The notes under the pieces: generated by a model | Told to the model about the DNA's origin: nothing | Seen by the model: the letters and a program-made list of their open reading frames with translations, nothing else | Database searches by the model: none | Made by a program: the position numbers and the translations under genes | Shown here: positions 14,752 to 14,861 of the stretch, piece by piece | Numbering within the stretch: position 1 is the stretch's first letter | Layout: each line of letters opens with the position of its first letter | NCBI RefSeq assembly: GCF_003334765.1 | Contig: NZ_QOWT01000001.1 | From: Escherichia coli | GTDB taxonomy: Bacteria; Pseudomonadota; Gammaproteobacteria; Enterobacterales; Enterobacteriaceae | Length of the DNA: 64,000 bases | Reading direction: 5' to 3' (one strand)

Positions 14752-14783
14752 TGTAAAACGCAGATTATTATCTGTGTTTTACA
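14752..14783. promoter_or_regulatory. imperfect 13-bp inverted repeat upstream of ydjL (candidate operator)
   Basis: tgtaaaacgcaga-ttatta-tctgtgttttaca, one mismatch; lies 10 bp upstream of a TTGACC -35-like hexamer (14793..14798). Confidence 0.4.
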
Positions 14784-14861
14784 GATTTAATGTTGACCTC
14801 AAAAATCATGTGGGTAAGTATGATGGCCATCTAAGCAAAACTAAACACAGAGGATGACGCA

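What the first reader, a model, noticed from the sequence alone, without database searches (positions are those of the whole stretch)
14752..14798. Near-perfect 13-bp inverted repeat abutting a -35-like hexamer upstream of ydjL
tgtaaaacgcaga-N6-tctgtgttttaca (14752..14783) has one mismatch and sits 10 bp upstream of TTGACC (14793..14798), in the 369-bp yeaC-ydjL intergenic region. Its position and symmetry suit an operator for a dimeric repressor, and the DeoR-type YdjF encoded in the same cluster is the obvious candidate. This is inference only.
Basis: inference. Interest (0 to 1): 0.45.

Follow-up and report, generated by a model that had tools for sequence, protein, structure and literature searches.

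The report
Predicted YdjF operator boxes at ydjL promoter
The inverted repeat upstream of E. coli ydjL is real and is best read as two adjacent copies of a 15-bp box (TCTGTG-N3-CACAGA) that is probably the binding site of YdjF, the uncharacterised regulator of this sugar-acid gene cluster that is silent in the laboratory and switched on in the gut.

Summary
TGTAAAACGCAGA-N6-TCTGTGTTTTACA lies at 14752-14783, 9 nt upstream of TTGACC, in the 369-bp yeaC-ydjL spacer of E. coli. Repeats this good are rare (about 0.45 expected per 64 kb).

The conserved unit is not the 13-bp repeat but a 15-bp box, TCTGTG-N3-CACAGA.
- The left arm belongs to a weaker box 21 bp upstream (14750-14764).

A matrix trained only on other species puts the window's three best hits at three places:
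- this box;
- a box inside ydjL (15170-15184), which has the lowest synonymous variation in the gene;
- a box upstream of ydjF (21251-21265).

At both promoters the box ends 7 bp before a conserved -35. The same box and geometry recur upstream of horizontally related ydj clusters in Firmicutes and Atopobiaceae. All complete clusters carry a ydjF homologue.

Most likely these are operators of the DeoR-family protein YdjF, acting as a repressor helped by the intragenic site. Binding and the sign of regulation are untested. I found no published YdjF operator. This is a new member of a known kind, of moderate interest.

The parts
14752..14783 (.). It is a composite of the two boxes listed next.
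   Evidence: The full-length repeat is present only in Escherichia.
14771..14785 (+). Proximal box TCTGTGTTTTACAGA, 11/12 to TCTGTG-N3-CACAGA. Its centre is about -50/-51 from the predicted start, and it ends 7 bp before the -35.
   Evidence: Joint top score (19.6 bits) in the 64-kb window with a matrix trained on non-E. coli sites. TCT, TT and A.A.ATT columns are invariant in 15 genera. It is a perfect palindrome in Serratia and Enterobacillus.
14750..14764 (+). Distal, weaker box GTTGTAAAACGCAGA (8/12), 21 bp centre-to-centre upstream of the proximal box.
   Evidence: Conserved as GTTGTGAAATRCAGA in Enterobacteriaceae and as TCTGCGAAACAAATA at the same 21-bp offset in Serratia. It scores below 6 bits in E. 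coli, so it is a weak site.
14740..14746 (+). Invariant TGTGATC, a CRP-like half-site. The 22-mer 14737-14758 overlaps the distal box and has its centre about -81.
   Evidence: TGTGA and C are invariant in all 15 genera, always 31 bp upstream of the proximal box. Assignment to CRP is an inference from the consensus TGTGA-N6-TCACA; the second half, TTGTA, is poor.
14793..14798 (+). Predicted -35 hexamer TTGACC of the ydjL promoter.
   Evidence: TTGA invariant and C nearly invariant. Fixed 17-bp spacing to the -10 in all Enterobacterales. No experimental start site was found.
14816..14821 (+). Predicted -10 hexamer AAGTAT (AATTAT or AACTAT in other genera). The predicted start is about 14828-14829.
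   Evidence: Inference only.
14846..14851 (+). Lone CACAGA half-site next to the ribosome-binding site. Uncertain relevance.
   Evidence: Perfect 9-nt complement of 14771-14779. Conserved as ACACAAAGGA, but it overlaps the Shine-Dalgarno sequence, so the conservation is ambiguous.
15170..15184 (+). Intragenic box TCTGTGTTGTACAGA (11/12) in ydjL codons Phe-Leu-Cys-Cys-Thr-Glu, 399 bp from the proximal box. Candidate auxiliary operator.
   Evidence: Joint top score in the window. Lowest synonymous codon entropy in ydjL among 25 Enterobacterales, 0.233 versus a mean of 1.06 bits, lowest of 159 windows. Gram-positive orthologues encode DFLCC with varied codons and have no box.
21251..21265 (+). 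Box TCTGTGATTCAAACA upstream of ydjF, ending 7 bp before the -35 TTGAAA. Candidate autoregulatory operator.
   Evidence: Third-best score in the window, 17.5 bits. AAATCTGTGATTCAGACA is conserved in 13 of 14 genera. The geometry is identical to the ydjL promoter.
21223..21234 (+). Conserved TCTGTT-TCTGTG half-sites, with TCTGTG 22 bp upstream of the ydjF proximal box.
   Evidence: The block CCTCTGTTTCTGTG is nearly invariant. Its role is inferred.
21273..21301 (+). Predicted ydjF promoter: -35 TTGAAA (21273-21278), 17 bp, -10 GATAAT (21296-21301).
   Evidence: Term-seq finds an RNA 3' end just downstream of ydjF in LB, so ydjF appears to be transcribed there.
21340..22098 (+). ydjF, a DeoR/GlpR-family regulator with a GTG start. 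It is the candidate binder.
   Evidence: HTH_DeoR 5.4e-17 and DeoRC 3.2e-49. Below the cut-off of every named NCBIfam equivalog. A homologue is present in every complete ydj cluster.
14862..15938 (+). ydjL, first gene of ydjLKJIHG. It is the regulated target.

Best explanation
The repeat marks two tandem operator boxes for YdjF, the DeoR/GlpR-family regulator encoded in the same cluster. The recognition unit is a 15-bp hyphenated palindrome, TCTGTG-N3-CACAGA, which would suit one YdjF dimer. At the ydjL promoter a strong box (14771-14785) ends 7 bp before the -35, and a weaker box lies one 21-bp step upstream (14750-14764). The weaker box overlaps a conserved CRP-like TGTGATC half-site. A third box inside ydjL (15170-15184) and a fourth upstream of ydjF (21251-21265) complete the set. 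Proposed mechanism (inferred): without inducer, YdjF occupies the tandem boxes from about -79 to -44. This blocks the upstream contacts the weak promoter needs (RNA polymerase alpha C-terminal domain, and CRP if the half-site is real). It is stabilised by looping to the intragenic box about 400 bp away, and YdjF represses its own promoter through the same geometry. A phosphorylated sugar-acid intermediate of the pathway would release it. What is shown: the motif, its positions, its conservation, its co-occurrence with ydjF, and synonymous-site constraint at the intragenic copy. What is inferred: that YdjF is the binder, the sign of regulation, looping, the CRP role and the inducer.
For: Motif and positions:
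- Only two 15-mers in the 64-kb window match TCTGTG-N3-CACAGA at 11/12. Both are at ydjL, at -91 and +308 from the ATG.
- A matrix trained only on non-E. coli sites ranks 15170, 14771 and 21251 as the three best loci in the window on either strand.
- Phylogenetic footprint in 15 Enterobacterales genera: the proximal box, TGTGATC, TTGAC and the -10 are the conserved blocks. The left arm is lost in the most distant genera.

Geometry:
- Box, 7 bp, -35, 17 bp, -10 at both the ydjL and ydjF promoters.
- Box, 8-9 bp, -35 upstream of ydjL in Lachnospiraceae, Clostridiaceae, Eubacteriaceae and Atopobiaceae.

Other phyla:
- A matrix trained on Enterobacterales only finds significant sites upstream of ydjL in 12 non-Enterobacterales loci (Fisher combined p = 1.5e-9).
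- In 7 of 14 such loci the single best hit of the whole 11-21 kb locus lies upstream of a ydj gene.
- Atopobiaceae locus L037 has three boxes at 20-21 bp spacing, and the third overlaps the -35.

Link to YdjF:
- A ydjF homologue accompanies every complete cluster.
- YdjF has HTH_DeoR and DeoRC domains.

Intragenic box:
- Lowest synonymous entropy in ydjL.
- The same peptide is coded freely in Gram-positives.
- A control look-alike at 14974-14988 shows free synonymous variation.

Literature:
- The ydjL promoter is off in culture and on in the mouse gut, with regulation unknown (PMC6561318).
- A ydjF 3' end is detected in LB, which fits a repressor being present while the operon is silent.
- The Gram-positive target promoters are near consensus, several with a TG-extended -10, so they would not need an activator.
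Against: - No binding or expression experiment exists for YdjF.
- A site centred near -51 that does not overlap the -35 or -10 is an unusual place for a simple repressor and a typical place for an activator. Its fixed distance to the -35 across phyla would also suit a protein that contacts RNA polymerase.
- The E. coli ydjL -10 (AAGTAT) is weak, as in activator-dependent promoters.
- The distal box is weak in E. coli (8/12, below 6 bits).
- The predicted transcription start is unverified. The only start used in the literature for ydjL lies inside yeaC (primer at 14385).
- Some clusters (Megamonas L040, Anaerococcus L032, Ruminococcus L030) lack a convincing box.
- Two Escherichia-specific substitutions that perfect the long repeat are not explained by the two-box model.
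Confidence: 0.6

Rival explanations
1. The same boxes are bound by YdjF, but YdjF is an activator or a dual regulator. Bound about -51, it would recruit RNA polymerase to the weak ydjL promoter when its ligand is present, as the DeoR-family member FucR activates the fuc operons.
For: - The box-to-(-35) distance is fixed at 7 bp in Enterobacterales and 8-9 bp in other phyla, at two different promoters.
- The site does not overlap the core promoter.
- The E. coli -10, AAGTAT, matches only 3 of 6.
- YdjF scores 138 bits against the NCBIfam L-fucose operon activator model, although that is below the cut-off.
Against: - The target promoters in Gram-positive clusters are close to consensus, several with an extended -10.
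- The ydjF promoter (TTGAAA-17-GATAAT) looks self-sufficient.
- An auxiliary intragenic site 400 bp away is a hallmark of repression loops.
- In Atopobiaceae a third in-phase box overlaps the -35.
- Most characterised DeoR-family members are repressors (background knowledge).
Confidence: 0.17
2. The conserved DNA is bound by a protein other than YdjF, such as a global regulator (CRP-related, IHF or a nucleoid protein) or an unlinked specific factor. Its association with ydjF would then be incidental.
For: - An invariant TGTGATC adjoins the boxes.
- TGTGA is embedded in the ydjF box TCTGTGATTCA.
- Genomic SELEX listed ydjF among predicted CRP targets (PMC3105977).
- No experiment ties YdjF to this DNA.
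Against: - The motif follows the ydj cluster into Firmicutes and Actinobacteria, where enterobacterial global regulators are absent, and ydjF is the only regulator gene common to these clusters.
- The box does not fit the spacing of the CRP, TyrR (TGTAAA-N6-TTTACA) or LexA (CTGT-N8-ACAG) consensus. This was compared by eye against consensus sequences recalled from background knowledge.
Confidence: 0.1
3. The repeat acts as an RNA hairpin on the + strand, either as an intrinsic terminator or as a stabilising or processing stem for read-through transcripts from msrB-yeaC. It would not be a protein-binding site.
For: - The + strand RNA folds into a 19-pair stem of -19.3 kcal/mol, z = -6.2.
- The terminator-like scan flagged it.
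- The single arm mismatch is a G-U pair on the + strand.
- Two Escherichia-specific substitutions convert G-T to Watson-Crick pairs.
- Transcription from upstream does enter ydjL and is stopped by Rho near 15006.
Against: - The stem has only 4 G-C pairs and a poor U-tract, AUUUAAUGUU.
- Term-seq reports the yeaC 3' end at window 14539. It reports none at the repeat in the supplementary text held here, which covers three growth conditions, and the authors state that ydjL had no detectable 3' end in the LB OD 0.4 dataset.
- The hairpin is not conserved: Citrobacter youngae gives -9 kcal/mol, z = -0.9.
- The element travels with ydjL, not with the upstream gene, which differs in Budvicia, Serratia, Enterobacillus and Symbiopectobacterium.
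- Rfam finds nothing.
- A hairpin does not explain the matching boxes at 15170 and 21251.
Confidence: 0.04
4. The repeat is a chance or neutral palindrome with no function.
For: The sequence is A+T-rich intergenic DNA, and the full-length repeat is confined to one genus.
Against: - Expected 0.45 per 64 kb against a very specific location.
- Strong phylogenetic footprint.
- The motif recurs at two other conserved positions and in other phyla.
Confidence: 0.03

Closest known systems
GlpR and the glp operators of E. coli (DeoR/GlpR family)
   Same: - A DeoR-family sugar-phosphate-sensing regulator.
- Several hyphenated-palindrome operators in tandem at CRP-dependent catabolic promoters: four at glpFK (PMC2753651), and 4-8 sites per operon (PMC7567609).
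- Negative control 'at a distance' at glpD. The Yang & Larson 1996 title is listed; that its extra operators lie inside the glpD coding region is from my memory, because the paper could not be opened.
   Different: - The box sequence differs. GlpR recognises TGTTCGATAACGAACA-like 20-mers (from memory).
- GlpR operators overlap the -35, -10 and +1, whereas the YdjF-type box stops 7 bp short of the -35.
- YdjF scores far below the GlpR equivalog cut-offs.
DeoR and the deo operators O1, O2 and OE
   Same: - The founding member of the family.
- A 16-bp palindromic operator.
- Cooperative binding of one oligomer to operators hundreds of bp apart by looping (background knowledge).
- The only solved-structure relative of YdjF found by sequence is the deoxyribose operon repressor sensor domain (7l6l, E = 8e-10).
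   Different: - The DeoR operators (TGTTAGAATTCTAACA, from memory) overlap the -10 regions of two promoters.
- No tandem 21-bp pair is described for them, and the motif differs.
Auxiliary intragenic operators of lac (O2 in lacZ) and gal (OI in galE)
   Same: A secondary operator inside the first structural gene cooperates with a promoter-proximal or upstream operator. gal OE, like the box here, lies upstream of the -35 (background knowledge).
   Different: - Those repressors belong to the LacI/GalR family, not DeoR.
- Looping here is only inferred, from a conserved intragenic box under synonymous constraint.
Rho-independent terminator hairpin
   Same: A long perfect stem with a 4-nt loop followed by a T-containing stretch.
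   Different: A+T-rich stem, weak U-tract, no mapped 3' end, not conserved, and located immediately upstream of a promoter.

Membership tests
DeoR/GlpR-family regulator with cognate operator set | A regulator with an N-terminal DeoR-type helix-turn-helix and a C-terminal DeoRC sensor domain is encoded in or next to the regulated cluster. | tested here: met
   YdjF: HTH_DeoR 5.4e-17 and DeoRC 3.2e-49. The gene lies in the cluster. A homologue is present in every complete cluster examined.
DeoR/GlpR-family regulator with cognate operator set | Short palindromic or repeated operator present in several copies at the regulated promoter, in helical phase. | tested here: met
   15-bp box at 14771 with a weaker copy 21 bp upstream. 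Pairs 21-22 bp apart at the ydjF promoter. Three boxes at 20-21 bp spacing in Atopobiaceae.
DeoR/GlpR-family regulator with cognate operator set | The same motif occurs upstream of the regulator's own gene (autoregulation). | tested here: met
   TCTGTGATTCAAACA at 21251-21265, third-best hit in the window and conserved in 13 of 14 genera.
DeoR/GlpR-family regulator with cognate operator set | Motif and regulator co-occur across distant taxa. | tested here: met
   Enterobacterales-trained matrix: Fisher p = 1.5e-9 upstream of ydjL in 12 non-Enterobacterales loci. Best hit of the whole locus lies upstream of a ydj gene in 7 of 14. Three loci lack a convincing box.
DeoR/GlpR-family regulator with cognate operator set | Physical, sequence-specific binding of the regulator to the operator. 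| not testable with these tools
   No EMSA, footprint, ChIP or SELEX data for YdjF were found.
DeoR/GlpR-family regulator with cognate operator set | Release, or activation, by a phosphorylated sugar intermediate of the pathway. | not testable with these tools
   The physiological substrate of the pathway is unknown. The best in-vitro YdjI substrate is L-glycero-L-galacto-octuluronate (cited in PMC9602453).
Named DeoR-family equivalogs (GlpR, AgaR, FucR, SrlR, DeoR, UlaR, YgbI, YciT) | Whole-protein score above the curated NCBIfam cut-off. | tested here: not met
   The best score is 171.7 bits against a cut-off of 300 (haloarchaeal GlpR). All ten listed families are below their cut-offs.
Intrinsic (Rho-independent) terminator | G+C-rich stem followed by a U-run, an RNA 3' end at its foot, and a position downstream of a gene. 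| tested here: not met
   4 G-C pairs in 15, tail ATTTAATGTT. No Term-seq 3' end at MG1655 18614xx, and the yeaC 3' end maps to 14539. The stem is not conserved.
CRP site | TGTGA-N6-TCACA, 22-bp twofold symmetric, centred at -41.5, -61.5, -71.5 or -82.5. | tested here: inconclusive
   The left half, TGTGATCT, is perfect and invariant. The right half, TTGTA, matches 2 of 5. The centre is about -80.5 to -82.5 depending on an unverified start site.
TyrR box / LexA box | TGTAAA-N6-TTTACA (TyrR); CTGT-N8-ACAG (LexA). | tested here: not met
   TGTAAA and TTTACA are 20 bp apart, and CTGT and ACAG are 5 bp apart. The consensus spacings are from background knowledge.
Known RNA family (Rfam 15) | Covariance-model match. 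| tested here: not met
   No match with E up to 1 in 14300-15300 on either strand.

The most novel reading that the evidence does not exclude
The regulator, its box and the promoter form one module that has moved between phyla with a fixed box-to-(-35) distance. That geometry would mean YdjF-type proteins act through a direct, position-dependent contact with RNA polymerase (activation or anti-activation) rather than by occlusion. In Enterobacterales a second operator has been written into the codons of a zinc-binding Cys-Cys motif. DNA-level selection there even tolerates amino-acid changes (Thr, Ala, Lys) that keep the box. That intragenic site may also help stop read-through transcription, which Rho terminates in early ydjL.
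Probability: 0.2. Interest if true: 0.6.

Novelty: new member of a known kind. Interest (0 to 1): 0.45.

Why it matters
YdjF is one of the E. coli K-12 transcription factors still listed as uncharacterised (PMC4797297). ydjLKJIHG is an orphan sugar-acid pathway whose natural substrate is unknown. Its promoter is silent in culture but one of the most consistent switch-on signals in the mouse gut (PMC6561318).

A concrete operator model gives simple handles for follow-up work:
- exact bases to mutate;
- a predicted autoregulatory site;
- a predicted intragenic auxiliary site.

These would allow the operon to be de-repressed, the inducer to be searched for, and the promoter to be engineered as a gut biosensor. 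The conservation of the box and its geometry in Firmicutes and Atopobiaceae suggests the prediction carries over to many gut bacteria that share this horizontally transferred cluster.

Tried and rejected
- **Naive motif discovery.** I counted hexamer-N(1-5)-reverse-complement patterns in the Gram-positive upstream regions. A/T-rich words swamped the result and it was uninformative. I replaced it with matrix scans using composition-matched shuffles.
- **A fourth box at 14974-14988.** TCTGCGGCGCAGACA scores 13.8 bits. I rejected it as a conserved operator because it encodes the invariant AAICGADMK zinc-Cys motif and its synonymous positions vary freely.
- **Terminator or RNA reading.** Rejected.
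- **TyrR, LexA, Fur and IHF look-alikes.** Wrong spacing, or not conserved in other genera. These comparisons were made by eye against consensus sequences from memory.
- **An alternative promoter, TTTACA-17-AAAAAT (14778-14806).** The scanner proposed it. I rejected it because its -10 is absent in Serratia, whereas TTGACY-17-AANTAT holds everywhere.
- **Literature on YdjF or ydjL regulation.** Nothing beyond lists and the two papers cited.
- **Yang & Larson 1996.** The paper could not be opened.
- **Not attempted.** I did not test covariation between YdjF recognition-helix residues and G versus T at box position 4, because loci mix both variants. I could not scan the whole E. coli genome for further boxes, because only the 64-kb window was available for pattern search.

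Full report
**Observation.** The window is E. coli. The finding lies in the 369-bp spacer between yeaC (ends 14492) and ydjL (starts 14862), the first gene of ydjLKJIHG, followed by ydjF and ydjE. The sequence reads TGTAAAACGCAGA (14752-14764), TTATTA, TCTGTGTTTTACA (14771-14783) with one mismatch. It extends to 14-nt arms with a 4-nt spacer. TTGACC follows at 14793-14798. Repeats of this quality occur at six places in the window. The other five are G+C-rich and look like terminator or REP-type hairpins, which is my reading and was not checked. Markov shuffles give 0.45 per 64 kb. K-12 MG1655 is identical across the spacer except for 14766.

**What is conserved.** I fetched 58 loci encoding YdjL relatives and mapped the ydj genes in them. 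The complete cluster, including a ydjF homologue, is present in about 25 Enterobacterales. With YdjL still 77-85% identical, it is also present in Lachnospiraceae, Eubacteriaceae, Clostridiaceae, Anaerococcus, Enterococcus, Megamonas and Atopobiaceae.

An alignment of the 140 bp upstream of ydjL from 15 Enterobacterales genera shows four conserved blocks:
- an invariant TGTGATC;
- ATCTGTGTTTYAMAGATTT;
- TTGAC;
- a -10-like AAGTAT, AATTAT or AACTAT exactly 17 bp after TTGACY.

It is absent in Serratia, Enterobacillus and Symbiopectobacterium. In Serratia and Enterobacillus the remaining block is itself a perfect palindrome, AAATCTGTG-TTT-CACAGATTT.

The conserved unit is therefore a 15-bp box, TCTGTG-N3-CACAGA, at 14771-14785 in E. 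coli. A second, weaker box sits 21 bp upstream (14750-14764). It reads GTTGTAAAACGCAGA in E. coli and TCTGCGAAACAAATA in Serratia. The long repeat is the two boxes read together in opposite orientation.

**The box recurs where an operator should.** In the whole window only two 15-mers match the box at 11/12: 14771 and 15170, the latter inside ydjL. A 10/12 match lies at 21251, upstream of ydjF. With a weight matrix built only from non-E. coli sites, these three are the top three loci of the window on either strand, at 19.6, 19.6 and 17.5 bits.

The ydjF upstream region aligns across 14 genera. It has a conserved AAATCTGTGATTCAGACA, then 7 bp, then TTGAAA, 17 bp, and GATAAT or GATACT. That is the same box-to-(-35) distance as at ydjL. 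A conserved TCTGTT-TCTGTG block lies 22 bp further upstream.

**The intragenic box.** It covers codons Phe-Leu-Cys-Cys-Thr-Glu of a cysteine-rich motif. Among 25 Enterobacterales this is the stretch of lowest synonymous codon entropy in the entire gene: 0.233 against a mean of 1.06 bits, the lowest of 159 windows. Gram-positive orthologues encode the same DFLCC with varied codons and have no box. In Enterobacterales the next residue varies (Thr, Ala, Lys) through codons that keep the box (ACA, GCA, AAA).

A look-alike at 14974-14988 serves as a negative control. It encodes the invariant AAICGADMK motif, and its synonymous sites vary freely.

**Other phyla.** A matrix trained only on Enterobacterales finds significant sites in the 300 bp upstream of ydjL in 12 non-Enterobacterales loci. 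Five have individual p of 0.006 or less, and the Fisher combined p is 1.5e-9. In 7 of 14 such loci the best hit of the whole 11-21 kb locus lies upstream of a ydj gene.

Examples are TCTGTGAAACACAGA (Atopobiaceae), TCTTTGAATCAAAGA (Lachnospiraceae) and TCTTTAAAACAAAGA (Clostridiaceae). Each lies 8 bp upstream of a near-consensus promoter. In the Atopobiaceae locus three boxes follow at 20-21 bp spacing, and the third overlaps the -35. Megamonas, Anaerococcus and one Ruminococcus locus lack a convincing box.

**Who binds.** YdjF has HTH_DeoR and DeoRC domains. It is below the cut-off of every named family member. It is the only regulator gene common to all these clusters. The literature lists it as uncharacterised (PMC4797297). 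I found no published operator, ChIP or SELEX result. That YdjF is the binder is therefore a strong comparative inference, not a demonstrated fact.

**How it probably works.** Three things favour repression:
- family precedent;
- the self-sufficient look of the ydjF promoter and of the Gram-positive promoters;
- the auxiliary intragenic site.

The ydjL promoter is silent in culture and switched on in the mouse gut (PMC6561318). A ydjF 3' end is seen in LB. The boxes span about -79 to -44 from the predicted start (about 14828-14829). They overlap the CRP-like half-site and the zone used by the alpha C-terminal domain. Looping to the box 399 bp downstream would stabilise the complex. This resembles glpD with GlpR and deo with DeoR; those details are from memory, and the title of Yang & Larson 1996 appears.

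The weakest link is the sign of regulation. A site at -51 at a fixed distance from the -35 is also what an activator would use, and the E. coli -10 is poor.

**Rivals.** An RNA hairpin or terminator is unlikely. The E. coli stem is stable (-19.3 kcal/mol) but A+T-rich and lacks a good U-run. It is not conserved. Term-seq places the yeaC 3' end at window 14539 and reports no end at the repeat. Rfam finds nothing. TyrR and LexA boxes fail on spacing. A different protein cannot be excluded but would not explain the cross-phylum link with ydjF. Chance is excluded by the conservation.

**Unexplained.** In the Escherichia lineage two substitutions (14755 G to A, 14759 T to C) both turn G-T oppositions of the long repeat into Watson-Crick pairs. 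This hints at some benefit of overall dyad symmetry, for example for a dimer of dimers, or of a hairpin. Two events are too few to decide.

**Verdict.** The feature is real and functional-looking. It is a new member of a known kind (a DeoR-family operator set) for an uncharacterised E. coli regulator. Interest is moderate.

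Noticed in passing
L023-L046 (loci) versus window 14862-22098: The whole ydjL-ydjF cluster is shared between Enterobacterales and gut Firmicutes, Atopobiaceae and Megamonas. YdjL is 77-85% identical, while YdjF is only 41-56% identical. This points to inter-phylum horizontal transfer of the pathway.
   Followed up: partly
window 14690-14870; L064: 1095 of 5426 complete E. coli genomes lack the ydjL promoter region. In strain 2017.15.02CC, IS1 copies replace the cluster from about window 14833 onwards, leaving only fragments of transporter genes.
   Followed up: partly
L063 (O157:H7), equivalent to window 14781-14786: The O157:H7 strain examined has ACAGAT changed to ACATGT.
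   Followed up: no
window about 15006 (MG1655 1861188): A published Rho-termination region with a high Rho score (20.7) lies in early ydjL. A ydjL 5'UTR+ORF-lacZ fusion rises more than 2-fold in rhoR66S. That fusion's '5' UTR' starts inside yeaC (primer at 14385), so read-through from upstream enters ydjL and is stopped by Rho. A link to the intragenic boxes is speculative.
   Followed up: partly
window 14500-14539: The hairpin ATCCCCTT...AAGGGGAT (14500-14530) after yeaC coincides with a strong Term-seq 3' end at MG1655 1861655, which is window 14539. This is the real end of the yeaC transcript.
   Followed up: yes
window 14974-14988: TCTGCGGCGCAGACA is the fourth-best box-like locus in the window, but it is a by-product of coding for the invariant AAICGADMK zinc-ligand motif. 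Its synonymous sites vary freely.
   Followed up: yes
window 21220-21234: The block CCTCTGTTTCTGTG upstream of ydjF is almost invariant in 14 genera. It is more conserved than expected for a mere distal half-site, and its exact role is unclear.
   Followed up: partly
window 14755 and 14759: Two Escherichia-specific substitutions each convert a G-T opposition in the long inverted repeat into a Watson-Crick pair. The two-box model does not explain this.
   Followed up: no
L040 (Megamonas), 50-100 bp upstream of ydjL: This locus lacks the TCTGTG box. It has a different palindrome, AAACATAATAATGTTT, just after the predicted -10, so the operator or the regulator may have been replaced.
   Followed up: no
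window about 22150-22190 (MG1655 1854008): The hairpin GCGGCAAGTGAATTTGCCGC followed by a T-run between ydjF and ydjE matches a Term-seq 3' end. ydjF is therefore transcribed in LB and is separated from ydjE.
   Followed up: partly
window 21340: ydjF starts with GTG in all 14 genera aligned, preceded by a conserved ACAGRGG Shine-Dalgarno region.
   Followed up: no
L001 8459-9313 (about window 10558-11412): yeaE is annotated as a pseudogene with an internal stop in the genome identical to the window (strain FORC 064).
   Followed up: no
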